From Desulfobacterium sp. (GTDB taxonomy: Bacteria > Desulfobacterota > Desulfobacteria > Desulfobacterales > Desulfobacteraceae): 64,000 nt of DNA. The position numbers were made by a program, and so were the translations under genes. The stretch is taken from the NCBI GenBank assembly GCA_016342325.1, contig JAEINR010000003.1, positions 35,106-99,105 on the forward strand, given 5' to 3'. Below the pieces are notes generated by a model that was not told the DNA's origin, ran no database searches, and saw only the letters and a program-made list of their open reading frames with translations. Of this stretch, positions 1,274 through 35,395 are shown piece by piece (position 1 is the stretch's first letter; the number at the start of each line of letters is the position of its first letter).

Positions 1274-2001
1274 CCATGGATTTTTCCGGTTACCAGACTG
1301 AGGGAGTAGCGGGTGCCAATGGTCGTTGTGAGGATCGATACAGGGGCTTCCACGCCATGGTGCAAAATTTGGCCGTCAATCACTTCCACCTTGTAAAGGC
1401 TTTCATTAAATCCCTTTTTGATGTACTTTAAAAAAGCCTCCTTGATTGTCCAGTGTTTGAAAATATCCTGGGCCATGGTCCCCATGGAGGCCAGCTCGTT
1501 TTGGGTAAAAGCGGTTTTCATGAACGAGCTGTCGGGTGTCTTCCCGATCTCTTCGATGTCAAGACCGATGTCTATCCCCTCCCTTGTGGTGAGGCCGACG
1601 GCAGCATAGTCGCCCGAGTGGGAGATGGAGATCCTGAACCCGGGAAGACCTTTTATAAAAGGTGCACCTTCGTCCTGGTGCATGACCGTGATTTCGGTTA
1701 TGGGCGTATCGTTGTTCAGGGCCCTTTGCACCATGGTCTTGACAAGAAACCGTCCGGCCATCCATTCGACCTGTTTCTTGAGGCTCCTGAACCTGTTCAC
1801 CATCTCAATCTCCCCGGGGGAGAGAAAAACGGTCCGGAAATCTTCTTTTTTAAACAATCGGTTTCTTTTTACCTGGAAATTATGCCAACCGTTTTCTGCC
1901 ATAAGGCAGTGGTTGAGAAACGAGGAGATGCTGTGGTAACAGATCCTGGTTCCGGGTTCAGGTTCAAAGCAGTTGCAGGATAGTCTCTCTTTATCTTCCA
2001 T
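1270..2001 (-). CDS. Sfp-type 4'-phosphopantetheinyl transferase
   Basis: WMAGRFLVK, GAPFI, ISISHSGDY, IGLDIEE, HWTIKEAFLK motifs; 243 aa. Confidence 0.9.
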   Translation of the reverse strand: MEDKERLSCNCFEPEPGTRICYHSISSFLNHCLMAENGWHNFQVKRNRLFKKEDFRTVFLSPGEIEMVNRFRSLKKQVEWMAGRFLVKTMVQRALNNDTPITEITVMHQDEGAPFIKGLPGFRISISHSGDYAAVGLTTREGIDIGLDIEEIGKTPDSSFMKTAFTQNELASMGTMAQDIFKHWTIKEAFLKYIKKGFNESLYKVEVIDGQILHHGVEAPVSILTTTIGTRYSLSLVTGKIHG

Positions 2002-11286: not shown

Positions 11287-13341
<2,055 letters not shown>

Positions 13342-13396: not shown

Positions 13397-13428
13397 ATAC
13401 GATATGCAACGATTCCCTTTTTGAGACA

Positions 13429-20813: not shown

Positions 20814-20892
20814 TTAGCCTCTTAGCTCTGATTTTCGTGTTTTTTTGGCAAGAGAATCAGAAAAACGCTTTGGTTCTGGCTTGTCCAGGTTA
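20814..20892 (+). repeat. Dispersed intergenic repeat family A, copy 2
   Basis: TTAGCCTCTTAGCTCTGATTTTCGTG...GGCAAGAGAATCAGAAAAACGCTTTGGTTCTGGCTTGTCCAGGTTA; same orientation as copy 1. Confidence 0.82.
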
Positions 20893-20897
20893 GGGGT

Positions 20898-21161
20898 CTC
20901 CTGGAACTTGAGGGTTCCCTGGTAGTGGCGGGTGCCGGTGTATCCCCCTTGCCCGCGTCCAGCCTGTCCGCGATATAGTGGGCAAGCTTTGCGGCCGTGT
21001 TGAGATTCCTGAGTTTCAGATCCTCGGGCACCGTGAGTCCGAACTTGGCAGAGACCTTTGCAAAGATCTCCACCTGTTTTACCGTGTCAATGCCCAGATC
21101 CGCCTCAAGGTCAAGATCCGCATTAAGCATGTCAGTGGTGTCGCCAGTCTGCTCGGCAATG
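20898..21161 (-). pseudogene. Relic of the megasynthase: truncated ACP4-like domain joined to a DH fragment
   Basis: 20957-21161 aligns to 24551-24755 (about 12 mismatches in 205 bp, manual count); 20898-20934 is identical to 22505-22541; helix I missing and an in-frame stop just upstream. Confidence 0.82.
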
Positions 21162-21416: not shown

Positions 21417-21532
21417 TTCGCTTAGGGCGTAAACGCGAATCCATGGAAGGAAAAACGGATTTTCAAGGTGGTTCTTTTTGTAAAAAACAAAAACGAAACT
21501 ATAGGATAATTACTCTCAAAGGAGAAACCAAC

Positions 21533-21964: not shown

Positions 21965-24900
21965 TCAGGCCGGGGAGGGAACGCCATAGGTGACCCTGTG
22001 GTCGATCCGGTCTTCCTGGGCCAGCTTGTTGAGCTTGACCATCTTAAAGTCGATGACCTCTACAAAGAGGTTGCCCTCCTTGTCCACAAGCTGGAGCTGG
22101 TAGGTGTTGGTTTCCTTATCAGAGGCGGTCTTTGTGGTCAGGCAGTAGTACTCCTGGTCCTTTTCCGGCTTCTGGTAAAACTTCATGGTCTTGATGTCAT
22201 AGGGCAGCACTGTCTGGGACGAGGTAAAGAACTCGAATAAACCGCCTGTCTGGAACATGGCATCCACCAACACCACTGGGGACTGGAGGTTGGGCTCGGT
22301 CACGCCCGTGAAGAACTCCTTTTGGCTGGCATCTTTGACCGTGGTCACCAGGGTGGTTTCGTCAAAGGAGTTGACGTCCGTGATGGTGTTGAACAGTCCG
22401 TCCATGAACAGTCGTCTTGGGTGGTATACGATCTCCCCAAGCGTGCCGTCCACCTTGACCGGGTTGAACTCGGGGAGTTCCACACGCTTGTTCCCAAGCG
22501 GGGACTCCTGGAACTTGAGGGTTCCCTGGTAGTGGCGGGTGGGATCCCCCATCACCACACCCTTGGGGTTCTTGAACCGGGAGGTGATGGTGCAGTCGAA
22601 CAGCCCGTCTGCCTTGCGGTTACCCGTGACTTCCAGTTCCTTTGGCCGTCCCTTGAGGATCTTAATGCCGTAGGGGATGGAAAAGTCGGAGAGTTCCGTA
22701 AGCATCTCCTGGTCCCCGGCAAGGGCGGTTGCCGCTTCGGCCAGGGTTTCAATGCCCGTGGCCCCGAGAAACACCGGCACATCTTCCATGGCGTGGTCCA
22801 GGAGGAACAGATCCCGCTTCAGATCCAGGGTCCTTCTGAACTCGATCCTTGCGTCATCCTTTGACACCATGTCATCGAGGAAGGGGAAGGCTGGGTTGTT
22901 GGGCTCGCCCAGGAGACCGTCCCGGTCAAAGCTGTAGTCAAGGCCTGAGATAATCACTTCTACCTCGGTTCTGTCCAGAAGATCCGCCATAAAGAACCCG
23001 ATGCCCTGGTCCAGGGGCAGGAATTCGAGCCCCCGCTCTTTTAGTACCGTGATCACCGTGGGGTTGGTGGCCATGCCCGCGCCTGACCAGGCAGTCCAGT
23101 CATATACCTTGAAGTTTCGTTCTGGGAAGAGTTGCTGCTGCCGTAGCGCCATCTTGGCGATGAGGTCGTTGGCCGCAGTATAGTCTGCCTGGCCTTCGTT
23201 GCCGAATCGTGCCGTCACCGAAGAGAAGGTGCAGAAGAAACCATACTCCCTGGATGCCATGGCTGACAGGAGGTTGAGCATTCCCTTGACCTTGACATCC
23301 ACCACCCGCTGGAAGGCGTTGAGCTCTTTCTTGGGGATGAACTGGCTCATCTCAAGGCCGGCTGCGTGGATGACACCGTGGATGGTGTCATGGCTTGCCA
23401 CGGCCTTGTTGACCGCATCCGGGTCAGTCACGTCGGCGGCATGGTAGGTCACATGGACCCCCAGGGATCTTAAGGCGTCGATGTTGGCTGCGGATTCCCG
23501 CATGTTCACGATCCTGTCCACCCGTTTGCGGATCTCCAGGGGACGGCCCTTGGGCATCTCTTTCTTGACCAGGGCCATGATGCCGGCTTGGTCGAGATCC
23601 GTTGCCAGGAAGGCATCGTCCATACCGAAGATGTCGCTGCTGCCCAGGATTACAAGATCGGTTTTATAGGTTTTGACGACCTGTTTGAGGATCTCAAAGG
23701 TGATGCCCCTTGCGCCGCCGGTGACAAGCAGGGTGGTGTTTTTTTCGATCATGGGTGCCTTTGTTTCCGGCACCTGCTGATCCATGGTCAGGACATACCG
23801 TTTTCCGTCCCTGTATCCCACTTCGCACCGGTCACAGTCCGAGCTCAGCTCGTCTATGAAGGTGGCAATGGTTTTTTCCACGTCTGCTCCATGGGACTCG
23901 GCCGTGAAATCAACGATCTTGACCCGGGTTTGGGCCATCTCCTTGGTCACGGTCTTCAGCAGGCCGGACAGGCCTGCAAAGCCCGGATGGATCCTGCCGC
24001 AATTCTTGCCGTAGGGAAAGACAATGGAGTCAAACCCCAGGCTTGCGATGAGGGAGCCTGGCTGGCCGAGCTTGTCATACAGCCCCTTTATGAGGACAAA
24101 CATGGATGTGACGGCGGTGTTGACATAGGTAGCATCCATTGCCGTGTCGGAAAAGTAGTGGTCCAGATGGGCAAAGTGGAGAAGACCGTTGATCTTTTTG
24201 TGCCGGGTCTTCAACTGCTTGACGCAGGCTTCGACGCTGGCCGTATCGCCCAGGTTCACCGTGGTGTCGGCTTTTTTTCCGGCACCGAGGGTGATCACCT
24301 TTCCTTTTTGGGCCTTGATGGCCTGGATCGCCGTGTCGGCAAATCCGTGGCTGTCAAGGGTGACCACAAAGGTCTTGTTGCTGAAGGGGTTGGCCTTGGG
24401 TTCGGCAACCGGGGTTTCTTTTATCCCCATCACCATGCGTTTGACCAGGGAGAGGGGATCGGCTGCTGCCGGGGTATTCACTGGGTTCTCAACCGGTGCG
24501 ATCGGTGCGACCGGTGCGGATTTTCCGTTCTTTGGGGCGGGTGCGCCGGTATCCAGCCTGCCTGCGATATAGTGGGCAAGCTTTGCGGCGGTGTTGAGAT
24601 CCCTGAGTTTCAGATCCTCGGGCACCGTGAGTCCGAACTTGGCAGAGACCTTTGCAAAGATCTCCACCTGTTTTACCGTGTCAATGCCCAGATCCGCCTC
24701 AAGGTCGAGATCTGCATCCAGCATGTCGGTGGTGTAGCCGGTCTGCTCGGCAATGATCTCCTGGATGGTGGTCACAGGGCCTGCCGGCTCATAGGTCCCT
24801 TTCTCTTTCGAGTTTTTTTTGTCACCGCCACCCTTGGGCGGGGTGTCGTTGTCGTCCGGTCCTGCCATGGTGTCCAGGTAGTCGGCAAGCTTCGCAATGG

Positions 24901-27900
24901 TGTTGAGATCCCGAAGTTTCAGGTCTTCAGGCACGGTCAGCCCGAAATGGGTGGACGCCTTTGCAAAGATCTCCACCTGTTTCACCGTGTCGATGCCCAG
25001 ATCCGCCTCAAGGTCGAGATCCGCCTCTAACATGTCGGTGGTGTACCCGGTCTGCTCGGCAATGATCTCCTTTACCGTGTCCATGGTCTTGGAACCCGCT
25101 GGTGGGGCCGCTGGAACAACCGGAGCAGCTGCTGGTGCGGTTGGGGTGTCGCTTGTGGTCACCGTGGTGCTGAAGTAGGCACCCAGCTTGGCAATGGTGT
25201 TGAGATCTCTTAACTTCAGGTCTTCAGGCACGGCCAGTCCGAAATGGGTGGCCGCCTTTGCAAAGATCTCCACCTGTTTTACCGTGTCAATGCCCAGATC
25301 CGCCTCAAGATCGAGATCGTCCTCGAGCATGTCGGTGGTGTACCCGGTCTGCTCTGCAATGATCTGTTTGATGGCGTCATCCATTGCGGCATCGCCAGCG
25401 CCATCGTCGGCACCAGGGGCGTCTTTCGCAATGGCCGTCACGCCGGCCTTCTGGCCCACGTAGGCTGCAAGCTTTGCAATGGTGTTGAGATCCCGGAGTT
25501 TCAGGTCCTCGGGCACGGAAAAACCGAACTTACCTGCTGTCCTTGCAAAGATCTCCACCTGTTTTACCGTGTCAATGCCCAGATCCGCCTCAAGGTCGAG
25601 ATCGTCCTCAAGCATGTCGGTGGTGTAACCGGTCTGCTCGGCAATGATCTCCTTGATGATGGAAAGGGGCCCTGGTCCGGCTTGGCTCGGTAGGGCCGGT
25701 GCTGCCAGGGGAGGCGCAATGGCTTCCACCTGGGGTGCTGTAACTTCCAGGACCTTGGGAACCGGGTTTGTCTCGCCATCCACCACACAGAGGGTGTTGT
25801 CGATGATCTTGAGCTCCGGGGTGTCGGTTTCGCTGATACGCTGGAGCCATCCAAGGTAAGCCGCGTTGTTCTCAAATTCATTCTCCTGGATGCGTTTGAT
25901 GAACACAAAGGCAAAATGGGATCCGAATCCCGCGGCCAGGTGAAGCCCGTATTCGGCATCAATGGCGCCGGTGTTGGTGAAGTTGAGATCCTTGAAGTGA
26001 TCGGGTATGTTCTTCAGGTTGGCAATGGGCGGGGCCTTGCGCTTCTGAAGGGCCTTGACCAGCACCACATCCTCCACCGCAGCCCCCAGGGTATGACCGG
26101 TGAAGCCCTTGGTGTTGGAGATGGCGACCTTGCTCAGATGGTCCTTGAAGGTGGTCCTGAGGGCCGTTACCTCGGCATCGGCACTGCCGCCCCTGGCCGG
26201 GGTGTAGGTCTCGTGGGACATGAACAACAGCTTGTCCGCATAGTCCTCAACCTTGAGGCCGTGGCGCTTTTCCACGATATCGACGAATCGCTTCATCTCG
26301 TGGGACATGTGGGGCACGTCGATGTTAAAGGTGTGATAGGCGCTGTTGGCCATGTGGGTTCCCAGGATCTCGGCCTGGCCGTTCATTCCCCTGGCCTTGA
26401 CCGTTGACTCCCGCTCCACGATGAGGCCCACGGCCCCGCTGCCGAGGATGGTGCCGTTGCGCTCCGCATCAAAGGGTTTGGCTGCCTCGGAGACCCGTTT
26501 CTTTACGGTGGCGGCACCCAGGGCAAGAAAGCCCGTGCCCACCCACTGGTTCTGGGCCGATGAGGTGGCGTTCTCGCCGCCTACTACGATGACCCGCTTG
26601 CAGCGGCCCACCCGGATCCAGTCCTCGGCAATGCCCATGGCCTGGGTGGTGGATGCGCAGGCGCTGGATACCAGGGTGTTGGGTCCCTTAGCCCGGATGA
26701 TCTGGGCAAGGTGGGCCGCCCCCAGGGGACAGTGGTTGGAAAGGAAGTTCCGGTCAAACTTGTAGGGCCCGAGATCACTTCGTTTCCGTGACTTGATCTT
26801 GAAGAACCAGTCGGTGATCTCCTCCTTGACGGCAATGTCCTGGATTTTTTCCATGAGGTAGTAGTAGATGTTCTCAAATTCCTCATAGGGTTTCAGGTAG
26901 AGCCGGTCGTAGAGGTATTTTTCCATCTCGTTGATCAAGGTCTCGCTGTTGGGAAAGAGCGATGTGATGATAACGCCGGTATCGTCCTGCATCTCCTTGG
27001 GCAGGGCAAATCCGTCCGGGATCATCCGGGTGCCGGTGGAGGCCTTTTTATACTGCATCACAAGGGGGATGCCAGCATCCTTGAGGGCTTCGATACCTGC
27101 AGCAACGGCCAGGGACATGCTGATGTCGTACTGGGCCTTGATGCCGTACTCGTCGGTGAGGTCAAAGTAGCCCAGCTGGCCTGCAAGGTGGATCACATCC
27201 TCGGTGCGGGTGATCTCCACGAACCGTGCATTGCCGTCGGGCTGTTTAAAGAGCCGGGTGATGTTCTTGTCCGTGATTCGCTTCTGGTCTTCCAGATCCA
27301 GGGGCTCGATAAAGTTGGTCCCGGCGAGGATCTGGTCGAAGTTGTCCGCGGCAAAAACCCGCTTTGCCTTGCCAGGAAGTCCCACGGACACGCCTGAGAT
27401 CACGATGGGTTCGGTGGTGAAGTCAAACCGTTCCACGGCCTCGATGGCGGTGTTTCGCTTTTGGCGAAGGAACTCGTCATGGAGAAGCTTGTCCGTGATA
27501 TCCTGGTTCTTCATCTTAAATGCGGCAAAATCATCATCCGTGGAAATCCGGGTCGATTTTTCATCCCGTGCAAGGACAGCTACCGTGGAGGGTGCATTCG
27601 TGGTCTCTGGCAGGGCGGGTTTTCTCGTGAAGATGCTGTTGAATGATTTAAGATGGTTGCGGCACTCCTTAAAGCTTTCCACCTCGCCTTTTTTGGCATC
27701 AACGGTGACGGCCGTCTGGTACTCGGCAATGTTGATGTTCTTCAAAAGGTTGGTGAGCAGCCGGGACGGGCCGATCTCGATGAAGTGGGTCTTGCCTGCG
27801 GAATAGACAGACTCAATGGACCGGATGAACTCCACCGGGTTGGTGATCTGCTTTGCAAGGAGATCCTTGACCGCCCGCCGGTTCTCGGGGTAGGGCGTTG

Positions 27901-30900
27901 CCGTGACATTGGAGATCACCCGTCCGAAGCGGGTTTCGTTGAATGTGATGGTGTCAAGAAAGTCCCTCAGTTCCTGGGCCGCCTCGCTGAACAGCGGGGT
28001 GTGGAAGGCGCCTGAGAGGTTGAGCTTCTTGTACACCACATGGTTCTCGGACAGATAGGAGCAAAAGTTCTTGATGGCTTCGGCATTTCCCGAAACCGCG
28101 GTCTGGTTCTCGCTGTTCTTGTTGGTGATGTAGATGTCGGAAAGAAAGGACTTCCGGATGAAGCTGGCTGTCTCTTTTTCGTTCCTGAACACCACCATGA
28201 TCTTGCCCGGATGTTTCAGGCTTGCCTGCTTCATGAGCTCCGATCGTTTGATGATCAGCCGCATGGCAGGGTCAAAGTTGAGCATGCCGCTGCAGAAAAG
28301 GGCGGTGTACTCTCCGACACTGTGGCCGATGAAGAGATCCGGGCTGAATCCCTGGGCGCTGAGCCGCTCAAACAGGGCGGCCGACGACAGGAACACGGCC
28401 GGCTGGGTGTTTTCCGTGAGGTTCAGCCGTTCGTCATTTCCGAACATGATCTCAAGCAGGGAGTAGCCCCGCTCCTTGACAAAGATCGCCTCCCCCTGGT
28501 CCATGAAGGCCCGGATCACGGAATCCTTGTCATAGAGGTCCTTCATCATGCCGGGGCGCTGGGCGCCCTGGCCGGAAAGAAGGGCCACCATGCGTTGCTT
28601 TTTGCCGTCTCCGTCCGCCGAGTAGGAGACCGTGGTTTCTGTGGCAGGCGTCTGGAAGTTCTCCTGGGCCGCGGTGGAAACCGCTGTGCCGTTGAACTTT
28701 CGTTCCCCGGTCAGGGCGGCGGGCAGGGTGGTGATGAGCATGTGGCAGTGATTGCCGCCGATGCCGTTGACATTGGAGGCGATCTTCATGGGCCTGTTTT
28801 TGCCCACCGGGGTCAACCCGGCACAGTGCTTGAGGATCGTGCTGTCCTTCATGGTGGAGTTTTCTGCTGAATAGTTGAAATCCGGCAGCACGGTTCGTTT
28901 CTGGTTCATCAGTGCAAGCTTTGCCAGGGCAACGGCTGGGTTGGCCGCCTTGAAATAGCCGAACTGGGGCTTGACGTTTCCGCAATAGACCGGGTGGTTG
29001 AAGCATTTTTCCGCCACCTGTTTTTCGATCATGTCCCCAAGGACGTTGGAAAAGGCGAACAGGTCCAGGTGGTCGACATCCTTTTTCCGGGTGTTGTTTT
29101 TCTGGTAGCACTCGTTGATGGTTTTTACAAAGGTGGTTTCAGAGGGTGCCAGAAGGTGGTCCGGAGCACTGGACTTGATGGCGATCTGGTTGAGCTCAGC
29201 CAGGATGGTCATTCCGGCCTCTTTGGCCTTCTTATATGTGGTGAGCACGTGGATGGCAGCGCCCTCGCCCATGACGTAGCCGTCGGCCCGCTGGTCAAAG
29301 AAGTTGCACTCGTTATCCGACAAAAGGCCCAGGCGTTTGAAGGCCATGAGCACCGCAGGATAGAGATTGGCGTCCACGCCCCCTGCCAGGACATAGTCAA
29401 GGTCCTTGAACAACAGGTTCCTGGCCCCGTTTCTGAGGGCGATCACCGAAGACGCACAGGAGGCGTCCACCACATAGTTGGCGCCGTTAAGCCCAAAGTG
29501 GTTGGCGATCCTGCCCGAAATGATGTTGGACAAAAGTCCGGGGGTGGTGTCTTCGTTGTTCTCGGGAATCCGGGCGCGGATGGCGTCGATAAGTTCCCCT
29601 GCAACAGCGTCGGCCTTTCCTTCTGCCAATCCCTGGGTCTGTTGGATGATCTCCCTTACCAGGTTTTTCCTGACCCTGAGGATGTTCTTGTTCTGTCGCT
29701 CTCCAGGGATGGTGCCGAGGATGACCCCGGTACGGTTGCCCTCTGTAAGGTACTTGCCAAGGCCGGATGTTTCGATGGCCTCGTCTGCTGCATCCAGACC
29801 ATAGAGCTGGCCCGGCTCCAGGGAGCGAACCGTCTTCGGGGGGGTCCGGTATTTGGCGTTGTTGAACTTGAAATCCTTGATCACTCCCGCTTTTACCATG
29901 GGAAGGTGGTAGATGGATTTTTTGTCAAAGGCGGCATAGGCGTCGTTGGAAAAACGTTCCTCAGGGATGGGAGAAAGCTGTTTCTCTCCGGTTTCCAGGT
30001 GTTGCCAGAACTCCTGGGTGTTTTTTGCCCCGGGCATGCAGACACCGAGGCCGGCCACAACGATTCTGTCATCGTTGAAGTCGTAGTCCGTGTCCGTGAA
30101 GATGGTTCTTTCTACGGGGGTATAATCCTTGCGATACTCCTCCACAACCATGTGGTAGTTGATGCCTCCGAATCCGTAGGCGCTGATACCGGCCTTTCGG
30201 GTGGCGTTGTTCTCCGGCAGCCAGGGGCGTTGCTCTTCCAGGATGTAGAGGGCGCTGTCCGAGAGATCGTGGTTATGGGAGAGCTTCTCAAATTGGCCGT
30301 TGGGGGGCAGGATGCCGTTCTTGACCGCCATGATCGCCTTGGCTAGGCCTGCGGCCCCGGCGCCGCCCAGGAGATGGCCGATCTGGGACTTGACCGAACT
30401 GATGCCGGCCTTTGTATCTCCGTAGATCATCTTCAGGGTGCTGAGTTCTGCCTGGTCGCCCATGATGGTGCTGGTGCCGTGGGCCTCGATAAAGCCGATG
30501 TCAGCGGGGGTGATGTCTGATTTCATCTTTTCAAAGCAGCGTTCCAGGGCCAATGCCTGGCCCTGGATCTTGGGGGCGGCAATGGACTTGCCCTTGCCGT
30601 CGGAACTGGATCCGATGGCCTTGATCACGCCCAGGACGGTGTCACCGTCCCGGAGGGCATCCTTCATCCGCTTGAGAACAAAGGAGGCGGCACCCTCGCC
30701 CAGGACAAAGCCGTCGGCCCGCTCATCAAAGGGGTAGGACCCCTTGGCGGAAAGGGCGCCCATCTTGCAGAAGCCGACAAAGGATTCCGGTGTAAGGTGG
30801 GTGTTGACCCCGCCCACGATCACCTGGTCCACCTCGCCTGCGAGGAGTTCTCCCTGGGCCGCCTCAATGGCGGTGAAGGAGGAGGCGCAGGCAGCGTCAA

Positions 30901-33598
30901 CAATATAGTTGGGGCCTCTTACGCCCAAGTGCCTTGCAACCCTGGAGGCTTCGATATTGAGCAGCATGCCGTGGATCGGGTCATAGCCCGGGTTGTCTCC
31001 CTCAATCCCTTTCCGGAGCTGGGCAATGATTTTTTCCTTTTCCGGGTCAGTGAGGGCGGTATAGCTTTCCGTCTTTTCCAGCATGGCAATCACTTCGGGA
31101 AAGTGGTACTTGAATTGGAGATCGTTGCCAAGCTCGTTGCCCAGGCACGTGGCAACGATGACCGCGGTGCGTTCGGGATCGTTTACCCGAAGCTGGTTGT
31201 CTTCACCGAGATAACCCGCATCCGTTACTGCCTGGTAGGTGGCTTCCAGGAGCATCTGCTGGCTTCTGGAGAGTCTTGCCGCCTTTTCTTCGGTGTAGCC
31301 GAACCGCTCGCCGTCAAATTTGTAGTCATCCACAAGGCCGGCCATGAGGGTGTAGCTCTTGTCCTCGGCGGACTTGTCAGGATCAAAGTAGAGGTCGTGG
31401 CGCATGCGGGTGTCGGGGATTTCCTGGATGGCGTACCGTTTCTCAAGGATCGACTCCCACAGCTGATCCGGGGAGCTGGCTCCCGGCAGGATGCATCCCA
31501 TGCCGATGACGGCGATTTCGTCGTTGATGCTGTTGTGGTCGGAGGAGAAGATCTCCAGGGCCCCGAGATTCCTGAACAGGGTCTCTTTATCGTTGAACAG
31601 GGTTGAGTGGATGTCGTCAATGGAGATCGGGGCGTTGAAAAAAGCCAGGCTGTCCCCCACAAGAAAGTTGCCCAGCTCCTTGTGCTTCTCTCCTTCAAAA
31701 TAAGTGAAGTTTTCCACGCCCGGGTTCTTGAAATCCGGCAGAAACCCTTTGGCGCCGATGAGCAGGGAGCCGATGTTTCGTTTCTCAAAGGAGCGCTTCC
31801 GTTTCACCAGGGGCTCGCGGTTTCGGATCATCTCCTTTTCGGTCTTGATCATCATCCGGGCAAACTCGGTGGGGGCGGTTCTGGAAGCCAGGCCAACGCT
31901 CCCGCCGATCACCATGGTATCGTTCTCTTTTGAGATGATCTCCTGGTACTGCGCTTTGATGCTTCCGGTCTCGACAATTTCCTTGGAAAAGAGATAGGCG
32001 CTTCCCACCTGGATACCGATTTTGGTTCCCTTGGCCGCAAGGATGGATGAGAGACCTGAGATGAACCAGGATCCGAATGCGGTTGAGATGCCGCCGGCAA
32101 ACACAAGGCTTTGGCTTGATATGTCCATCTCTTTGGAATTGATCAGTTTGGACACGGCCGCTTCCCACAGGACAAGGCTTGACAGGGAGCCGATGTGACC
32201 GCCGGCCTCCTTGCCCTCAAGGATGAACCGGGTGCAGCCGTTCTTTTCCGCACTTTCCAGCATGGATAGGGACGGGGTGTGGAGATAGGTCTTGGTTCCC
32301 GCCTTTTCAAGCTCCTGGGCCTGGGAGGCGATGCCCCCTGCAAACAGGGCAAAGGGAACCTTGTATTGTTTGACCATGGCCAGATGCTTTTCAACGGCCG
32401 GATTAAAGGCCTCGATGCCGACCAGGCCTGCGCCAAAGGTTTTTACCTTTCCATGGGCGCCCTTGAGCATGGCATCGGCAAGGGGGGCGGGAAGGCTTCC
32501 CACTGCAAAGAAGGGCAGGGCGCCGGCTTCAAGCACCTGGGCGGCAAAATCGGCATTGTCGCTGATGTTTGCCATGGGGCCCTGGATCAGGGGCAGGGCC
32601 GTGCCGTGCTCCTTGGCAAGGGCCGTACCCGGGCGAATGGGATCATGGCTGTCAACCTGTTTGAGGCTCTCTCCGATGGTGGTGAAGAAGGTTGAGATCA
32701 TCTCTTCAAGATCCGTGGAAACAGATGCGAAATCCTTGGCAAATATGGCGTCCTGGCCTAGGAAGAAGAGGCTCTGGACCGGCGTGGCGTCCGTGTCCCC
32801 AAGGGATGTGATCTTTTTGGATATCTCCTGATAGATGGTCCGGCCGGCATCTTTGCCTTCGCCAAGAACGATGGCCTCTTCCTTGAGATCCTTGGCCACC
32901 TTTGTACCGAGCTTTGCAAACACCCTGTATCTTGTGTGGTTGTCAACGATGATCTCCAGGGAGTCGCCTTCGTCTACCGAGGAAAGAAGCTTTTTGAAGT
33001 TGTCCGAAAGCGGGCTCTCGTTGCTGAGCCACAACTGGCTGTCCAGGACCACGGCGCTTGCCCCTGCGGCAAACATGCCTGCGGCCGTGTACCGGCCCAC
33101 ACCACCGTGGATCACGATGGGAAGGACGCTGTTTTGAAGATACCATTGCATGAGGATAAAGGCGGAGTAATTGGAGACCCTTCCCCCCGCCTCGTTTCCC
33201 TTAAGAATCAGACCATGGGGTTCCACCGCCTCGATGGCATCGGTCATGTCAATGTCCCTGACCTCGAGGATGATCTTTGTTTCTGAAAATCCGTCAAGAT
33301 CAACCGGTGTCTCCCCCTTGCCAAGGGGGATGACCACACAGTTAAGATTGGGGGCGTTCAGGGCCTTGAGCCCCTCAAGGAGGGTCTCGTCCGGGCTCAC
33401 CAGCCGCACGCCAAAGAGAATGTCGGTCATGGCAAGGGTTTTTACCCGGTTAAGGATTTCCGTGTTTGAAAGAAATTCACTGTCAAATACGGGGAGGGCT
33501 CCGGCCCTGAACGCCCTGGAAAAGAAGTCCAGGTTAAAGACCTTGGACGGATTGTAGACCATTAACGGGAGTCTAGAATTGAAAAGTCTTGTTATCAT
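21965..33598 (-). CDS. Single-polypeptide Pfa-like iterative type I PKS/FAS: FabK/PfaD-like ER x2, KS, KS (CLF-like), malonyl-AT, KS, ACP x4, KR, PKS-type DH
   Basis: EAGGR/EAGGH TIM barrels; DAACASS/EAHGT/GHLLG; DASCASS without His pair; GHSVG + GAFH; SACAST/SHET/GHTLG; 4x EADLGIDTVKQVEIF; TGGARGIT..YTAAN; DHAM..DAMFQ. Confidence 0.92.
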   Translation of the reverse strand: MITRLFNSRLPLMVYNPSKVFNLDFFSRAFRAGALPVFDSEFLSNTEILNRVKTLAMTDILFGVRLVSPDETLLEGLKALNAPNLNCVVIPLGKGETPVDLDGFSETKIILEVRDIDMTDAIEAVEPHGLILKGNEAGGRVSNYSAFILMQWYLQNSVLPIVIHGGVGRYTAAGMFAAGASAVVLDSQLWLSNESPLSDNFKKLLSSVDEGDSLEIIVDNHTRYRVFAKLGTKVAKDLKEEAIVLGEGKDAGRTIYQEISKKITSLGDTDATPVQSLFFLGQDAIFAKDFASVSTDLEEMISTFFTTIGESLKQVDSHDPIRPGTALAKEHGTALPLIQGPMANISDNADFAAQVLEAGALPFFAVGSLPAPLADAMLKGAHGKVKTFGAGLVGIEAFNPAVEKHLAMVKQYKVPFALFAGGIASQAQELEKAGTKTYLHTPSLSMLESAEKNGCTRFILEGKEAGGHIGSLSSLVLWEAAVSKLINSKEMDISSQSLVFAGGISTAFGSWFISGLSSILAAKGTKIGIQVGSAYLFSKEIVETGSIKAQYQEIISKENDTMVIGGSVGLASRTAPTEFARMMIKTEKEMIRNREPLVKRKRSFEKRNIGSLLIGAKGFLPDFKNPGVENFTYFEGEKHKELGNFLVGDSLAFFNAPISIDDIHSTLFNDKETLFRNLGALEIFSSDHNSINDEIAVIGMGCILPGASSPDQLWESILEKRYAIQEIPDTRMRHDLYFDPDKSAEDKSYTLMAGLVDDYKFDGERFGYTEEKAARLSRSQQMLLEATYQAVTDAGYLGEDNQLRVNDPERTAVIVATCLGNELGNDLQFKYHFPEVIAMLEKTESYTALTDPEKEKIIAQLRKGIEGDNPGYDPIHGMLLNIEASRVARHLGVRGPNYIVDAACASSFTAIEAAQGELLAGEVDQVIVGGVNTHLTPESFVGFCKMGALSAKGSYPFDERADGFVLGEGAASFVLKRMKDALRDGDTVLGVIKAIGSSSDGKGKSIAAPKIQGQALALERCFEKMKSDITPADIGFIEAHGTSTIMGDQAELSTLKMIYGDTKAGISSVKSQIGHLLGGAGAAGLAKAIMAVKNGILPPNGQFEKLSHNHDLSDSALYILEEQRPWLPENNATRKAGISAYGFGGINYHMVVEEYRKDYTPVERTIFTDTDYDFNDDRIVVAGLGVCMPGAKNTQEFWQHLETGEKQLSPIPEERFSNDAYAAFDKKSIYHLPMVKAGVIKDFKFNNAKYRTPPKTVRSLEPGQLYGLDAADEAIETSGLGKYLTEGNRTGVILGTIPGERQNKNILRVRKNLVREIIQQTQGLAEGKADAVAGELIDAIRARIPENNEDTTPGLLSNIISGRIANHFGLNGANYVVDASCASSVIALRNGARNLLFKDLDYVLAGGVDANLYPAVLMAFKRLGLLSDNECNFFDQRADGYVMGEGAAIHVLTTYKKAKEAGMTILAELNQIAIKSSAPDHLLAPSETTFVKTINECYQKNNTRKKDVDHLDLFAFSNVLGDMIEKQVAEKCFNHPVYCGNVKPQFGYFKAANPAVALAKLALMNQKRTVLPDFNYSAENSTMKDSTILKHCAGLTPVGKNRPMKIASNVNGIGGNHCHMLITTLPAALTGERKFNGTAVSTAAQENFQTPATETTVSYSADGDGKKQRMVALLSGQGAQRPGMMKDLYDKDSVIRAFMDQGEAIFVKERGYSLLEIMFGNDERLNLTENTQPAVFLSSAALFERLSAQGFSPDLFIGHSVGEYTALFCSGMLNFDPAMRLIIKRSELMKQASLKHPGKIMVVFRNEKETASFIRKSFLSDIYITNKNSENQTAVSGNAEAIKNFCSYLSENHVVYKKLNLSGAFHTPLFSEAAQELRDFLDTITFNETRFGRVISNVTATPYPENRRAVKDLLAKQITNPVEFIRSIESVYSAGKTHFIEIGPSRLLTNLLKNINIAEYQTAVTVDAKKGEVESFKECRNHLKSFNSIFTRKPALPETTNAPSTVAVLARDEKSTRISTDDDFAAFKMKNQDITDKLLHDEFLRQKRNTAIEAVERFDFTTEPIVISGVSVGLPGKAKRVFAADNFDQILAGTNFIEPLDLEDQKRITDKNITRLFKQPDGNARFVEITRTEDVIHLAGQLGYFDLTDEYGIKAQYDISMSLAVAAGIEALKDAGIPLVMQYKKASTGTRMIPDGFALPKEMQDDTGVIITSLFPNSETLINEMEKYLYDRLYLKPYEEFENIYYYLMEKIQDIAVKEEITDWFFKIKSRKRSDLGPYKFDRNFLSNHCPLGAAHLAQIIRAKGPNTLVSSACASTTQAMGIAEDWIRVGRCKRVIVVGGENATSSAQNQWVGTGFLALGAATVKKRVSEAAKPFDAERNGTILGSGAVGLIVERESTVKARGMNGQAEILGTHMANSAYHTFNIDVPHMSHEMKRFVDIVEKRHGLKVEDYADKLLFMSHETYTPARGGSADAEVTALRTTFKDHLSKVAISNTKGFTGHTLGAAVEDVVLVKALQKRKAPPIANLKNIPDHFKDLNFTNTGAIDAEYGLHLAAGFGSHFAFVFIKRIQENEFENNAAYLGWLQRISETDTPELKIIDNTLCVVDGETNPVPKVLEVTAPQVEAIAPPLAAPALPSQAGPGPLSIIKEIIAEQTGYTTDMLEDDLDLEADLGIDTVKQVEIFARTAGKFGFSVPEDLKLRDLNTIAKLAAYVGQKAGVTAIAKDAPGADDGAGDAAMDDAIKQIIAEQTGYTTDMLEDDLDLEADLGIDTVKQVEIFAKAATHFGLAVPEDLKLRDLNTIAKLGAYFSTTVTTSDTPTAPAAAPVVPAAPPAGSKTMDTVKEIIAEQTGYTTDMLEADLDLEADLGIDTVKQVEIFAKASTHFGLTVPEDLKLRDLNTIAKLADYLDTMAGPDDNDTPPKGGGDKKNSKEKGTYEPAGPVTTIQEIIAEQTGYTTDMLDADLDLEADLGIDTVKQVEIFAKVSAKFGLTVPEDLKLRDLNTAAKLAHYIAGRLDTGAPAPKNGKSAPVAPIAPVENPVNTPAAADPLSLVKRMVMGIKETPVAEPKANPFSNKTFVVTLDSHGFADTAIQAIKAQKGKVITLGAGKKADTTVNLGDTASVEACVKQLKTRHKKINGLLHFAHLDHYFSDTAMDATYVNTAVTSMFVLIKGLYDKLGQPGSLIASLGFDSIVFPYGKNCGRIHPGFAGLSGLLKTVTKEMAQTRVKIVDFTAESHGADVEKTIATFIDELSSDCDRCEVGYRDGKRYVLTMDQQVPETKAPMIEKNTTLLVTGGARGITFEILKQVVKTYKTDLVILGSSDIFGMDDAFLATDLDQAGIMALVKKEMPKGRPLEIRKRVDRIVNMRESAANIDALRSLGVHVTYHAADVTDPDAVNKAVASHDTIHGVIHAAGLEMSQFIPKKELNAFQRVVDVKVKGMLNLLSAMASREYGFFCTFSSVTARFGNEGQADYTAANDLIAKMALRQQQLFPERNFKVYDWTAWSGAGMATNPTVITVLKERGLEFLPLDQGIGFFMADLLDRTEVEVIISGLDYSFDRDGLLGEPNNPAFPFLDDMVSKDDARIEFRRTLDLKRDLFLLDHAMEDVPVFLGATGIETLAEAATALAGDQEMLTELSDFSIPYGIKILKGRPKELEVTGNRKADGLFDCTITSRFKNPKGVVMGDPTRHYQGTLKFQESPLGNKRVELPEFNPVKVDGTLGEIVYHPRRLFMDGLFNTITDVNSFDETTLVTTVKDASQKEFFTGVTEPNLQSPVVLVDAMFQTGGLFEFFTSSQTVLPYDIKTMKFYQKPEKDQEYYCLTTKTASDKETNTYQLQLVDKEGNLFVEVIDFKMVKLNKLAQEDRIDHRVTYGVPSPA
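24551..25665 (-). repeat. Four tandem near-identical ACP-coding repeats inside the megasynthase
   Basis: Repeated DNA AGATCTCCACCTG..ACCGTGTC.ATGCCCAGATCCGCCTCAAG at about 300-bp spacing with Pro/Ala-rich linkers. Confidence 0.92.
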
Positions 33599-33755: not shown

Positions 33756-33772
33756 TACAACTATTGTGCCAA
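33756..33772 (-). promoter_or_regulatory. Putative sigma54 promoter of the megasynthase
   Basis: Minus strand TTGGCACAATAGTTGTA (canonical -24, TTGT variant at -12); about 160 bp upstream of the ATG, next to a divergent sigma54 activator. Confidence 0.55.
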
Positions 33773-33910
33773 GCTGACTTAAAATAAACATTGTCCCGAA
33801 ATCAAAGGGGTTTCTTTGGGGTTGCCTTGTCTCCTTTGGTGTGATAGCTGTGGGAGGGTATACATATAATGGACATGGCGTGTGCAATTTGTGCATGGGA
33901 CGGAGGAAGT

Positions 33911-35395
33911 GTGAAAAAAGAGAGATTGAGCAGTGAAGAGCGGGGGTTTTTCAGGATGGTCTACCATGCCGCCTTTGCCAACCCGTTCAGCGAGCTGAGG
34001 GAAAAGCTGGATCGTAAGATTGCGGGCCATTTTCCGGGACTTTCCAAGAGCGAGAGCGGTGACCGGTACATCCGGGAGATAGACATGCGGATCCGTCGCC
34101 TGGAGAAGGAGGGCAGGGGGCATCTTGACTCCTTCAGCGGCCAGGACAGGAGCATTATCAAGATTGTGTTTCTGTTTGATCTGTTTTACAAGTTCCGGGA
34201 CCGGTTTGACCGGCTCATCGTGGATCAGATCAAGGCCGGGGATGAATCTGTACCTGTTGTGTTTGCAGACGAGGCCATGGCCATTATCCGAAGACGGGGG
34301 ATTCCGGAAGAGACCATCCTCCACTATTTTGCCTTTTCCTACCAGCTGAGGCGGGCTTTTTTCTTCATCTCCCACTCCCTTGTGGGCAACAGCCAGTGCA
34401 TGAAGACCCTGCGACGCAATCTGTGGAATAATGTTTTTACCCACAATATCGATCTCTACGACCGGTACCTGTGGAACCGCATGGAGGATTTCTCAACCTT
34501 AATCCTGGGGGAGACCGGCACGGGAAAGGGAACTGCGGCCATGGCCATGGGCCGAAGCGGTTATATTCCTTTTGATTTGAAAAAGAGGCGGTTTTCCGTC
34601 AGCTTTACCCGGGCCTTCAGCTCGTTGAACCTGTCCCAGTTTCCCGAGGCCCTGCTGGAATCAGAGTTGTTCGGTCACAAAAAAGGGGCGTTTACCGGGG
34701 CGGTTGAGGACTACCAGGGTGTGTTTGACCGGTGCAGTCCCCACGGCTCCATTCTGCTGGACGAGATCGGAGAGGTGGCGGACCATGTGCAGGTCAAGCT
34801 GCTCCAAGTCCTGCAGGAACGGTTTTTCACCCCGGTGGGAAGCCATTCACAGTCCAGGTTCCAGGGCCGGGTCATTGCTGCAACCAACCGGTCTGTTTCC
34901 GCCATCCTCAACGGAGAGGTTTTCAGGGACGATTTTTATTACAGGCTCTGTTCCGACATCATCGAGGTGCCGCCGTTGCGGGAAAGAATCAGCCAGGACC
35001 CCACCGAGCTGGACGATCTTTTGGAGTTCACGGTGAAGCGGATGGCCGGTTCCGCCTCCGGGGAGCTGACCACCCGGGTGAAGCGGGTCATCAACAAAGA
35101 GCTCGGTCCGGATTACCGCTGGCCCGGAAATGTGAGGGAGCTTGAGCAGTGTGTGAGACGGGTGATGATGCGCAAAAGCTATGAAGGCCGGGAGCAGGCC
35201 GGAAAAAAAGATCTTGGGGAGCGGCTTGCCCAGGGCATCAAGGCCGGAAATATGGCGGTTTCATCCTTAATCGCCGGGTATTGCACCCTGCTGTACCGGG
35301 AGCACAATACCTATGAACAGGTGGCCAAAAGAACCGGGTTGGACAGGCGAACCGTAAAAAAATATATTGACGGTTTTAAGGATAATGTCGCATAA
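33911..35395 (+). CDS. Sigma54-dependent enhancer-binding protein with unrecognised N-terminal domain
   Basis: GETGTGKG, ESELFGHKKGAFTGA, LLDEIGE, WPGNVRELEQ, C-terminal HTH; GGAGG RBS before GTG 33911. Confidence 0.9.
   Translation: MKKERLSSEERGFFRMVYHAAFANPFSELREKLDRKIAGHFPGLSKSESGDRYIREIDMRIRRLEKEGRGHLDSFSGQDRSIIKIVFLFDLFYKFRDRFDRLIVDQIKAGDESVPVVFADEAMAIIRRRGIPEETILHYFAFSYQLRRAFFFISHSLVGNSQCMKTLRRNLWNNVFTHNIDLYDRYLWNRMEDFSTLILGETGTGKGTAAMAMGRSGYIPFDLKKRRFSVSFTRAFSSLNLSQFPEALLESELFGHKKGAFTGAVEDYQGVFDRCSPHGSILLDEIGEVADHVQVKLLQVLQERFFTPVGSHSQSRFQGRVIAATNRSVSAILNGEVFRDDFYYRLCSDIIEVPPLRERISQDPTELDDLLEFTVKRMAGSASGELTTRVKRVINKELGPDYRWPGNVRELEQCVRRVMMRKSYEGREQAGKKDLGERLAQGIKAGNMAVSSLIAGYCTLLYREHNTYEQVAKRTGLDRRTVKKYIDGFKDNVA

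What the first reader, a model, noticed from the sequence alone, without database searches (positions are those of the whole stretch)
21965..33598. Single-gene megasynthase fusing PfaD-, PfaC- and PfaA-like parts in a non-canonical order
Seen: a 3,877-aa ORF ordered ER*-ER-KS-KS*-AT-KS-ACP4-KR-DH, with no thioesterase or reductive release domain. Known: canonical PUFA synthases split these functions over PfaA-D, with KS-AT-ACPn-KR in PfaA and ER last or separate. A third KS between AT and the ACPs and an N-terminal double ER are unusual. Pfa-like secondary lipid clusters have been catalogued in Deltaproteobacteria, so the architecture may be in databases, but I cannot name a product. Inference: it makes a long-chain, largely reduced lipid or a two-chain condensation product.
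Basis: partly seen in the sequence, partly recalled or inferred. Interest (0 to 1): 0.8.

Follow-up and report, generated by a model that had tools for sequence, protein, structure and literature searches.

The report
One-gene Pfa-like fatty acid synthase
A single 3,877-residue enzyme of a Desulfobacterium-like sulfate reducer holds every activity needed to build saturated fatty acids; its layout was catalogued in 2011 but its product is still unknown, and its carrier domains have threonine where all studied ones have serine.

Summary
ORF 21965-33598 (-) encodes 3,877 aa ordered ER'-ER-KS1-KS2'-AT-KS3-ACPx4-KR-DH, with no thioesterase or reductase.

The layout is not new. Shulse & Allen (2011) list ER-KS-CLF-AT-KS-ACP3-KR plus a PPTase for Desulfobacterium autotrophicum HRM2 as their "Type S"; the product is unknown, and they suggested it is the core FAS.

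What I add:
- The single-ORF layout is conserved in 47 related species genomes (Desulfobacteraceae, Desulfolunaceae, two Spirochaetota). All catalytic residues are invariant and dN/dS is about 0.13.
- ER, KS3 and AT resemble FabK, FabF and FabD. FabA-type isomerase domains and PfaB are absent, so this is not a PUFA synthase.
- A divergent sigma-54 activator (50 loci) and a YihG-family LPAAT (35 loci) are conserved neighbours. The PPTase lies 20 kb away here but is adjacent in some relatives.
- Every ACP has threonine at the phosphopantetheine-serine position (233/235 in the loci). This tracks KS3-containing architectures across phyla.

Best reading (0.5): a self-contained iterative FAS whose saturated acyl-ACPs go straight to phospholipid acyltransferases. 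The main rival is a specialised long-chain lipid. A two-chain condensation product is unsupported.

The parts
21965..33598 (-). Megasynthase ORF, 3,877 aa: ER'-ER-KS1-KS2'-AT-KS3-ACPx4-KR-DH
   Evidence: 47 full-length orthologs; dN/dS about 0.13
32624..33598 (-). ER' (aa 1-325): degenerate FabK-like TIM barrel. R140 replaces the catalytic His.
   Evidence: weak NMO hit; hhalign to ER 97.8%; never His in 48 orthologs; confident model, pTM 0.93
31529..32623 (-). ER (aa 326-690): FabK-type FMN enoyl-ACP reductase. H468 is invariant.
30104..31522 (-). KS1 (aa 693-1165): PfaA/PfaC-type KS with C904, H1040, H1075
   Evidence: TIGR02813 309 bits over PfaA positions 9-467; PfaC KS-CLF structure 6RIW E = 6e-70; triad invariant
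28679..30070 (-). KS2' (aa 1177-1640): CLF-like KS paralog. C1381 is kept; both His are lost (S1517, Y1548).
   Evidence: 29% identical to KS1
27629..28606 (-). AT (aa 1665-1990): FabD-like acyltransferase, probably malonyl-specific, with GHSVG (S1760) and GAFH (H1866)
   Evidence: TIGR00128 fabD 219.6 bits; motifs; invariant
25799..27451 (-). KS3 (aa 2050-2600): FabF-like KS with a helical insertion; C2314, H2462, H2502
   Evidence: PDB sequence hits are all FabF; model pLDDT 90, best folds FabF with TM 0.87; triad invariant in a 50-sequence cross-phylum alignment and in 48 orthologs
24464..25666 (-). Four tandem ACP domains (aa 2645-3045). Each has DLGIDTVKQVE, with Thr (2677, 2772, 2871, 2974) at the position of the phosphopantetheinylated Ser.
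22919..24271 (-). KR with its structural subdomain (aa 3110-3560): TGGARGI, Y3473, N3477
21968..22906 (-). PKS-type DH (aa 3565-3877): H3602, D3779, Q3783. The protein ends here.
33756..33771 (-). Sigma-54 -24/-12-like element TGGCACAATAGTTGTA, its 3' end 157 nt upstream of the ATG
   Evidence: A similar element was found upstream in 10 of 48 orthologous loci, against 0.7 expected. It is not universal.
33869..35395 (+). Divergently transcribed sigma-54-dependent activator (bEBP). Its N-terminal 200 aa match no known family.
   Evidence: same position and orientation in 49 of the 50 loci where a homolog was found
35554..36486 (+). YihG-family 1-acylglycerol-3-phosphate O-acyltransferase (LPAAT)
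   Evidence: NF058536 430.7 bits against a 260-bit cut-off; present at this position in 35 loci
1270..2001 (-). Sfp-type PPTase, ortholog of the PPTase that sits directly downstream of the megasynthase in relatives
   Evidence: Pfam ACPS; 55% identical to the L004 PPTase adjacent to its megasynthase; Type S PPTase YP_002604439, listed next to YP_002604438 and described as downstream for Type R in the text
20892..21160 (-). Relic: an ACP4-like fragment (94.6% nt identity to 24552-24755) joined to a 42-nt DH fragment. It is a remnant of a deleted partial copy, not a gene.

Best explanation
The gene encodes a self-contained, iterative type I fatty-acid synthase of the Pfa lineage (Shulse-Allen Type S).

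Proposed mechanism:
1. The FabD-like AT loads malonyl units onto the tandem ACPs.
2. Two condensing centres share the elongation cycles, as KS_A and KS_C do in PUFA synthases. One is the PfaC-like KS1/KS2' pair; the other is the FabF-like KS3.
3. KR, the PKS-type DH and the FabK-like ER fully reduce each beta-keto group. ER is buttressed by its dead paralog ER'.
4. There is no FabA-type dehydratase/isomerase, so the chains are saturated and unbranched.
5. There is no thioesterase because the finished acyl-ACP is used directly by glycerolipid acyltransferases. The conserved neighbouring YihG-type LPAAT is the obvious candidate, so the product ends up as membrane phospholipid acyl chains.
6. The ACPs are activated by the lineage's own Sfp-type PPTase, probably on the invariant Thr.

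The enzyme is probably a major, possibly the main, source of saturated fatty acids in Desulfobacteraceae.

Shown: domain set, intact active sites, conservation, synteny.
Inferred: division of labour between the KS centres, chain length, hand-off to the LPAAT, primary versus accessory role, Thr as the attachment site.
For: - The full reductive set is present, and every catalytic residue is invariant in 48 orthologs.
- Purifying selection acts on all domains, dN/dS 0.09-0.18.
- ER, KS3 and AT are closest to the FAS II enzymes FabK, FabF and FabD.
- No FabA-type DH and no TE or R domain were found.
- The single-ORF architecture is kept in 47 species genomes of Desulfobacteraceae and Desulfolunaceae plus two Spirochaetota, at 51-96% identity in KS3. 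This pattern looks like vertical, housekeeping-like retention.
- The YihG-family LPAAT (35 loci) and a dedicated regulator (50 loci) are conserved next to it.
- Housekeeping genes flank it: parAB, EF-G, ispH.
- Contigs 85-95% alike from two marine-sediment metatranscriptomes and one of another origin cover the whole gene. In the two sediment runs their depth equals or exceeds that over the neighbouring genes.
- Shulse & Allen report that HRM2 lacks fabA and fabZ, and they proposed Type S as its core FAS (PMC3098273).
- Precedent for release by an acyltransferase: the AGPAT domain of myxobacterial Pfa3 (my own knowledge).
Against: - I could not inspect whole genomes, so the absence of FAS II in these organisms is untested here. 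The 2011 claim could have missed lpxC-fabZ fusions.
- A dedicated sigma-54 activator suggests conditional rather than constitutive expression.
- Tandem ACPs and a CLF-like domain are hallmarks of accessory 'secondary lipid' synthases.
- Desulfobacteraceae contain abundant cis-monounsaturated and 10-methyl fatty acids. This enzyme alone cannot explain them, so another pathway must exist (my own knowledge).
- The contig depth from metatranscriptomes is a poor measure of expression and may include DNA.
Confidence: 0.5

Rival explanations
1. The chemistry is the same, but the role is accessory. The enzyme makes a specialised 'secondary' lipid chain, for example very long (C20 or more) saturated or partly reduced/hydroxylated acyl groups. 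It is switched on by the sigma-54 activator under particular conditions, and the YihG LPAAT places the chain at sn-2 of phospholipids. ArsA (C22-26) and HglE/C (C26-32) are examples in related synthases.
For: - It belongs to the Pfa-like 'secondary lipid synthase' radiation, in the same branch as the ArsA-type enzymes (PMC3098273).
- It has tandem ACPs (1-8 copies among orthologs) and a CLF-like KS2'.
- It has a dedicated divergent bEBP, and a -24/-12-like element occurs in 10 of 48 loci against 0.7 expected.
- A dedicated second LPAAT is more typical of a special acyl chain.
Against: - To my knowledge, no unusual long-chain lipid is known from the well-studied PLFA profiles of Desulfobacter, Desulfobacula or Desulfobacterium.
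- Retention across the family and the FAS II-like ER, KS3 and AT fit a bulk role.
- HRM2 reportedly lacks fabA and fabZ.
Confidence: 0.33
2. It is a heterocyst-glycolipid-like synthase (antiSMASH class hglE-KS). It would make long-chain hydroxylated alkyl chains for glycolipids that shield nitrogenase from oxygen, as proposed for Desulfobacterota in cold-seep surveys.
For: - A KS-CLF-AT block like HglC, and the lack of FabA-type DH domains, as in Type F.
Against: - There is no HglB-like ACP-thioester reductase, no extra KR (HglD) and no glycosyltransferase in the gene or among the ORFs scanned across the 64 kb window.
- An intact ER and DH predict full reduction rather than retained hydroxyl or keto groups.
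- The neighbour is a phospholipid LPAAT.
- These organisms are strict anaerobes.
Confidence: 0.05
3. One reading: two acyl chains are made and condensed head-to-head by the extra KS (an OleA/Pks13-like Claisen condensation) to give a two-chain product.
For: - Three KS-like domains, and KS2' keeps its Cys without the decarboxylating His residues, so it could hold an acyl chain.
Against: - KS3 has the full elongating Cys-His-His triad and a FabF fold.
- KS1/KS2' matches the PfaC KS-CLF didomain.
- The KS count equals that of ordinary Pfa synthases.
- There is no TE, FadD-like ligase, carboxyltransferase or OleBCD partner among the ORFs scanned in the window.
Confidence: 0.03

Closest known systems
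Shulse & Allen (2011) 'Type S' secondary lipid synthase, Desulfobacterium autotrophicum HRM2 YP_002604438 + PPTase YP_002604439
   Same: Same single-gene domain order (ER-KS-CLF-AT-KS-ACPn-KR), same genus-level taxon, same partner PPTase. The window gene is in effect an ortholog.
   Different: The 2011 annotation did not list the degenerate ER' or the C-terminal DH, and it gave 3 ACPs rather than 4. It knew of one genome only. The product was, and still is, uncharacterised. Here the PPTase lies 20 kb away rather than adjacent.
Types R and T (KS-MAT-'CLF'-ACP3-6-KR + PPTase) of Acidobacteria, Elusimicrobia, Chloroflexi and Clostridium thermocellum
   Same: Shares the core KS1-AT-KS3-ACPn-KR-DH, including the FabF-like KS3 (called CLF in 2011), the Thr-type ACP motif DLG[IV]DTVKQ[AV]E and a linked PPTase.
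   Different: They lack the N-terminal ER'-ER didomain and the KS2' insertion, so they are not self-sufficient for full reduction. ER'-ER was found only in Desulfobacterales and Spirochaetota, and every hit long enough to reach the next domain carries a KS after it.
Canonical PUFA synthase PfaABCD(E)
   Same: Tandem ACPs. The KS-CLF pair resembles PfaC (6RIW, E = 6e-70). KS1, ACP, KR and DH match the PfaA model TIGR02813. It is iterative, has two condensing centres and needs an Sfp-type PPTase.
   Different: - One polypeptide in a different order.
- No FabA-type DH/isomerase pair and no PfaB.
- The ER is FabK-like and N-terminal, not PfaD-like.
- The AT precedes a FabF-like KS.
- The whole-protein TIGR02813 score of 928.6 is below the cut-off of 1010.1.
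- The ACPs carry Thr instead of Ser.
- Polyunsaturated products are not expected.
ArsA/ArsD type I FAS of Azotobacter vinelandii (Type P) and Types M-O (ER-KS-MAT-ACPn-KR)
   Same: An N-terminal ER fused to KS-AT-ACP-KR. ArsA is a characterised saturated fatty-acid synthase whose product stays on the ACP and is passed directly to the next enzyme without a TE (my own knowledge of Miyanaga et al. 2008; domain order). It belongs to the same PPTase-motif and KS-tree branch, M-T.
   Different: No ER' duplicate and no KS2'/KS3 in the same polypeptide. Its partner is a type III PKS rather than an LPAAT. I could not check whether ArsA's ACP has Thr; one ArsA-like architecture, P0264, does.
Dissociated type II FAS (FabD, FabF, FabG, FabZ, FabK, AcpP) with PlsC-type acyltransferases
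   Same: AT, KS3 and ER are closest in sequence or fold to FabD, FabF and FabK. Acyl-ACP is consumed by acyltransferases without a thioesterase. The expected product is saturated acyl chains.
   Different: All activities are fused. KR and DH are of the PKS/Pfa type. The ACPs are tandem and have Thr. It has an additional PfaC-like KS-CLF pair.
Myxobacterial Pfa1-3, in which Pfa3 ends in an AGPAT domain
   Same: A Pfa-type synthase coupled to a 1-acylglycerol-3-phosphate acyltransferase for direct delivery into phospholipid (my own knowledge). Here the LPAAT is a conserved neighbouring gene.
   Different: The acyltransferase is a separate, divergently oriented YihG-family gene. The myxobacterial enzymes have FabA-type DH domains and make PUFAs.

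Membership tests
Shulse-Allen Type S secondary lipid synthase | Single polypeptide with the order ER-KS-CLF-AT-KS-ACPn-KR | tested here: met
   Segment-wise Pfam against Table S1 of PMC3098273
Shulse-Allen Type S secondary lipid synthase | Sfp-type PPTase gene linked to the synthase | tested here: inconclusive
   An orthologous PPTase is present in the window but 20 kb away (1270-2001). It lies within about 2 kb downstream in L001, L004-L007, L016, L058, L061 and L065, and upstream in L063 and L068.
Shulse-Allen Type S secondary lipid synthase | Host in the Desulfobacterium lineage | tested here: met
   The best genome match is a Desulfobacterium sp. MAG, 96% identity in KS3
PUFA synthase (PfaABCD) | Tandem ACP domains plus PfaA-type KS, KR and DH | tested here: inconclusive
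   The parts match TIGR02813 (309 bits for KS1, 204 bits for KR-DH), but the whole protein scores 928.6 against a cut-off of 1010.1
PUFA synthase (PfaABCD) | KS-CLF didomain of the PfaC type | tested here: met
   6RIW E = 6.1e-70 over aa 15-615 of the KS1-KS2' segment. KS2' lacks both His.
PUFA synthase (PfaABCD) | Two FabA-type dehydratase/isomerase domains that install cis double bonds | tested here: not met
   No FabA family hit in Pfam or NCBIfam on the whole protein or its segments. The only DH is of the PKS type.
PUFA synthase (PfaABCD) | PfaB acyltransferase and PfaD-type ER | tested here: not met
   There is a single FabD-like AT. The ER fold is closest to FabK (TM 0.85-0.88); PfaD ranks 40th with TM 0.41.
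PUFA synthase (PfaABCD) | Polyunsaturated C20-22 product | not testable with these tools
   Needs lipid analysis
Heterocyst glycolipid synthase (Hgl, antiSMASH hglE-KS) | HglB-like ACP-thioester reductase, extra KR and glycosyltransferase in the cluster | tested here: not met
   None in the gene or among the ORFs scanned across the 64 kb window
Phosphopantetheine carrier proteins (PF00550, PROSITE PS00012) | Serine in the D-S-L motif as the attachment site | tested here: not met
   All four repeats have D-T-V. HMMER alignments to PigH and Aquifex/Staphylococcus ACPs place the Thr on the Ser column.
Phosphopantetheine carrier proteins (PF00550, PROSITE PS00012) | Actually carries 4'-phosphopantetheine | not testable with these tools
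   Needs mass spectrometry of ACP co-expressed with the PPTase
Elongating beta-ketoacyl-ACP synthases (FabF/KAS II-like), for KS3 | Thiolase fold with a Cys-His-His triad | tested here: met
   Model pLDDT 90; FabF TM 0.87. C2314, H2462 and H2502 are invariant.
YihG-family LPAAT (the neighbour gene) | Full-length match above the NCBIfam equivalog cut-off | tested here: met
   NF058536, 430.7 bits against 260

The most novel reading that the evidence does not exclude
All KS3-containing Pfa-like synthases (Types R, S, T and relatives, spread over many bacterial phyla and some archaeal MAGs) carry their acyl chains on phosphopantetheine attached to a threonine instead of the universal serine. The arm is installed by the Sfp-type PPTase they travel with. 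This would make the carrier system orthogonal to the cell's AcpS/AcpP/AcpH machinery. In Desulfobacteraceae the ER-equipped version (this gene) would have become the principal fatty-acid synthase, feeding membrane phospholipids through the YihG LPAAT.
Probability: 0.3. Interest if true: 0.85.

Novelty: new member of a known kind. Interest (0 to 1): 0.5.

Why it matters
Desulfobacteraceae are among the main carbon oxidisers in marine sediments, and their fatty acids are used as biomarkers. If this one gene makes their bulk saturated acyl chains, it would be another bacterial lineage with a type I FAS for primary lipids, built from Pfa, PKS and FAS II parts. Isotopic and biomarker interpretations, and antibiotic-target assumptions about FAS II, would then need revisiting for this group.

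Independently, an invariant threonine at the phosphopantetheine site of hundreds of carrier domains challenges the textbook rule that the arm is always serine-linked. It points to a testable PPTase-carrier specificity that could serve as an orthogonal tagging pair. If the enzyme instead makes a conditional special lipid, the product is an unknown and widespread membrane component of sulfate reducers.

Tried and rejected
- A full-length homolog search timed out. I searched by segment instead. That database seems to hold only fragments of up to about 1,200 aa for this family, so the hit lengths there say nothing about fusion. Architecture was read from genome loci and from the representative library.
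- 'Split' versions in L001, L074 and L081 have overlapping out-of-frame ORFs, or come from assemblies of unknown quality. I did not treat them as genuine multi-gene forms.
- The sigma-54 promoter: the element is clear in the window and in 10 of 48 loci (0.7 expected), but a relaxed GG-N10-GC scan found nothing consistent in the other loci. Sigma-54 control is only suggested.
- The source organism or exact genome was not found. No sequencing run holds more than 20% of the sampled words, and the neighbour protein is not on record. No isolate RNA-seq could be laid on the gene. Only metatranscriptome contigs of relatives were available.
- No tRNA and no Rfam family was found in the window. The high-depth 80-nt spot at 20814-20894 is therefore unexplained.
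- Literature searches for threonine-linked phosphopantetheine, for the DLGIDTVKQVE motif and for a characterised Type R/S/T product found nothing relevant. This is absence in one library, not proof of novelty.
- The HRM2 genome paper does not discuss the gene.
I also could not retrieve ArsA to check its ACP motif.
Full report
**1. Observation**

The window has one ORF at 21965-33598 on the minus strand: ATG start, 3,877 aa. A GGAG lies 10 nt upstream of the ATG. The N-terminus MITRLFNSRLPL recurs in orthologs.

Pfam on nine overlapping segments, NCBIfam and motif mapping give the following domains:

| Domain | Residues | Key features |
|---|---|---|
| ER' | 1-325 | NMO, 24.7 bits, below cut-off |
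| ER | 326-690 | NMO, 48.5 bits; FabK model |
| KS1 | 693-1165 | C904, H1040, H1075 |
| KS2' | 1177-1640 | C1381, no His |
| AT | 1665-1990 | GHSVG, GAFH |
| KS3 | 2050-2600 | C2314, H2462, H2502 |
| ACP x4 | 2645-3045 | four repeats |
| KR | 3110-3560 | TGGARGI, YTAAN |
| DH | 3565-3877 | PKS-type; H3602, DAMFQ |

The protein ends right after the DH. No TE or reductase was found.

**2. The two degenerate domains are real**

- A profile-profile comparison of ER' with ER gives 97.8% probability, E = 7.7e-13 over 291 columns. It aligns KGNEAGGR140 with KEAGGH468, the catalytic His of FabK-type reductases.
- In 48 full-length orthologs this ER' position is K, R, C or Q and never H. H468 is invariant.
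- The AlphaFold model of aa 1-690 is confident (pLDDT 90, pTM 0.93) and consists of two alpha/beta barrels.
- Its best PDB matches are FabK structures (TM 0.85-0.88). PfaD appears only at rank 40 with TM 0.41. The ER is therefore FabK-like rather than PfaD-like.
- KS2' keeps the Cys (47/48) but has S and Y at the two His positions. It is 29% identical to KS1.
- The KS1-KS2' pair matches the solved PfaC KS-CLF didomain 6RIW at E = 6e-70.

**3. The 'third KS'**

- By sequence, KS3 hits only FabF/KAS II structures.
- Its model (pLDDT 90) superposes on FabF with TM 0.87 and carries an extra helical insertion.
- Its Cys-His-His triad is invariant in a 50-sequence alignment across phyla and in 48 orthologs. 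It is an active elongating KS, not a chain-length factor.
- The KS count (KS1, KS2', KS3) equals that of ordinary Pfa synthases (PfaA KS, PfaC KS, CLF). Only the position after the AT and the FabF-like type are unusual.

**4. Relatives and prior knowledge**

- A scan of one genome per GTDB species with the KS3 segment returned 79 loci. The best is a Desulfobacterium sp. MAG at 96% identity. The rest are Desulfobacteraceae (Desulfobacula, Desulfotignum, Desulfobacter, Desulfamplus), cultured Desulfoluna species at 52-54%, and two Spirochaetota MAGs.
- In 47 of these loci a single ORF of 3,550-4,263 aa covers the match. Domain mapping of eight of these full-length ORFs, chosen from the more divergent lineages, shows the same order with 1-8 ACPs.
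- dN/dS against two close relatives is 0.09-0.18 in every domain, including ER' and KS2'.
- Shulse & Allen 2011 already list D. autotrophicum HRM2 YP_002604438 as ER-KS-CLF-AT-KS-ACP3-KR with PPTase YP_002604439. This is their Type S, then known from that one genome. The product is unknown, and they suggested it may be the core FAS because HRM2 lacks fabA and fabZ. The window gene is an ortholog of that catalogued type.
- Their Types R and T (KS-MAT-'CLF'-ACPn-KR + PPTase) share the core. The KS of a Type-R-like locus is orthologous to KS1 (39%) rather than KS2' (26%). Many representative proteins have KS1-AT-KS3-ACPn-KR-DH.
- Type S is therefore Type R plus an N-terminal ER'-ER didomain and an inserted KS2'. 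The ER'-ER didomain gave only 52 database hits, from Desulfobacterales and Spirochaetota (some without a taxon label). Every hit long enough to reach the next domain has a KS after it.

**5. Surroundings**

- Directly upstream and divergent lies a sigma-54-dependent activator whose N-terminal 200 aa match no known family.
- Next to it is a gene that passes the NCBIfam equivalog cut-off for YihG-family 1-acylglycerol-3-phosphate acyltransferases (430.7 bits against 260).
- The activator is found in 50 of the related loci (at this position in 49 of them) and the LPAAT at this position in 35.
- A -24/-12-like element TGGCACAATAGTTGTA ends 157 nt upstream of the ATG. Comparable elements occur in 10 of 48 loci against 0.7 expected, but not in most Desulfobacula-type loci. 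Sigma-54 control is therefore suggested, not shown.
- The PPTase ortholog is at 1270-2001, 20 kb away. In L004-L007, L001 and L061 it directly follows the synthase.
- The rest of the window is ordinary chromosome: parAB, EF-G, ispH, chemotaxis genes and methylmalonyl-CoA pathway genes. No fab genes are present.

**6. Expression**

- No run holds the exact genome.
- Contigs 85-95% alike from three metatranscriptome runs (two of marine sediment, one of another origin) cover the gene end to end. In the two sediment runs their depth equals or exceeds that over the neighbouring FapA gene.
- Relatives are therefore transcribed in nature. The caveat is that contig depth is a crude measure.

**7. An unexpected feature: threonine carrier domains**

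- All four ACPs have DLGIDTVKQVE. HMMER alignments to solved ACPs put the T on the phosphopantetheinylated Ser of the D-S-L motif.
- In the 79 loci, 233 of 235 ACP motifs have T. Only one MAG (L059) has S.
- Among 120 cross-phylum KS3 homologs the count is 151 T to 1 S.
- A search of 1.84 billion cluster representatives with one ACP found 2,270 proteins at E <= 1e-10. In the best 149, the repeats within a protein are always all-T or all-S.
- T goes with KS3 architectures. S goes with the canonical PfaA order KS-AT-ACPn-KR (motif DLGIDSIKRVE). Exceptions: one S+KS3 protein (P0233); one T protein with an ArsA-like ER-KS-AT-ACP5-KR-DH order (P0264); and three T proteins mapped as KS-KS-AT-ACP4 without KS3 (P0194, P0224, P0253).
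- This matches the A-L versus M-T split that Shulse & Allen saw in PPTase motifs and in the KS tree.
- I found no paper that mentions it. Invariance implies function, most simply Thr-linked phosphopantetheine installed by the co-inherited PPTase. This is inference and needs mass spectrometry.

**8. Mechanism**

- Shown: a complete, intact set of FAS activities on one conserved polypeptide; no isomerising DH; no release domain; a conserved LPAAT neighbour.
- Inferred: iterative synthesis of saturated straight chains from malonyl units; division of elongation between KS1/KS2' and KS3; ER'/ER and KS1/KS2' acting as in-cis pseudo-dimers; direct acyl-ACP hand-off to glycerolipid acyltransferases.
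- The sequence cannot decide whether this is the bulk FAS (0.5, including the hand-off) or a conditional special-lipid synthase (0.33). The decisive inventory of FAS II genes in carrier genomes could not be run here.
- The Hgl-like glycolipid idea from metagenome surveys lacks the required partner enzymes.
- The two-chain condensation idea has no support.

**9. Verdict**

- The architecture is a new member of a kind catalogued since 2011, so it is not novel in itself.
- It stays interesting because the product is unknown, the enzyme is conserved across a whole ecologically important family, and its carrier domains break the serine rule.

Noticed in passing
window 24464-25666 (-); also L002-L081 and proteins P0001-P0321: All ACP repeats have Thr at the canonical phosphopantetheine-Ser position (DLGIDTVKQVE). 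The count is 233/235 in related loci and 151/152 in cross-phylum homologs. Within any one protein the repeats are all-T or all-S, and T tracks the KS3-containing architectures.
   Followed up: yes
window 20892-21160 (-): A relic of a partial second copy lies downstream of the gene. It is an ACP4-like piece (94.6% nt identity to 24552-24755, 88% aa) fused to a 42-nt fragment of the DH region (aa 3687-3700). The 102-aa 'ORF' 20822-21130 with a weak PP-binding hit is this relic.
   Followed up: yes
window 20814-20894: An ~80-nt stretch has very high contig depth (761 in a DNA metagenome, 104 in a metatranscriptome), and many contigs diverge on both sides. It behaves like a short repeated or mobile element or a small RNA. 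No tRNA or Rfam match, and it is single-copy in the window.
   Followed up: partly
window 21401-21416 (+): A perfect sigma-54 consensus TGGCACGCTCTTTGCT lies 27 nt upstream of a 131-aa ORF (21443-21838, +). That ORF has no Pfam match and was found only in the closest relative, L002.
   Followed up: no
window 38597-40300 (-): A 567-aa fusion of IspH/LytB (aa 3-274) with a UbiA-family prenyltransferase (aa 322-533). A homolog lies at the corresponding end, upstream of the synthase module, in 12 related loci.
   Followed up: no
window 1270-2001 (-) versus L004-L007, L001, L061: The Sfp-type PPTase follows the synthase directly in several relatives but is 20 kb away here. The intervening DNA holds chemotaxis genes, an SNF2 helicase, an HTH/Fic pair and an Fe-S protein, which suggests rearrangement or insertion downstream of the synthase.
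   Followed up: partly
window 19469-20526 (-): An HTH (Xre-type) gene overlaps a Fic/DOC-family gene, forming a toxin-antitoxin-like pair. It is absent from all related loci.
   Followed up: no
window 49362-50774 (+): A fusion of DUF169 (aa 13-220) with dephospho-CoA kinase CoaE (aa 270-450).
   Followed up: no
L082 10001-11698; proteins P0025, P0104, P0107: Stand-alone KS3-type proteins of about 550-565 aa, 44-50% identical to KS3, exist outside any megasynthase. One sits next to a class II aminoacyl-tRNA synthetase gene (PF00152 + OB anticodon-binding domain) on a 2.4 Mb contig; others are in Heimdallarchaeota MAGs. Their function is unknown.
   Followed up: no
L081 4284-7725: A Type-R-like synthase without an ER is preceded by an acyl-CoA dehydrogenase, ETF alpha/beta and an Fe-S/CCG oxidoreductase. 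This could be an alternative enoyl-reduction system acting in trans.
   Followed up: no
L059 (MAG OY759308) 3926-14833: This is the only ortholog whose ACPs have Ser (DLGIDSIKQVE) in an otherwise identical Type S architecture. It is a natural control for the Thr question.
   Followed up: no
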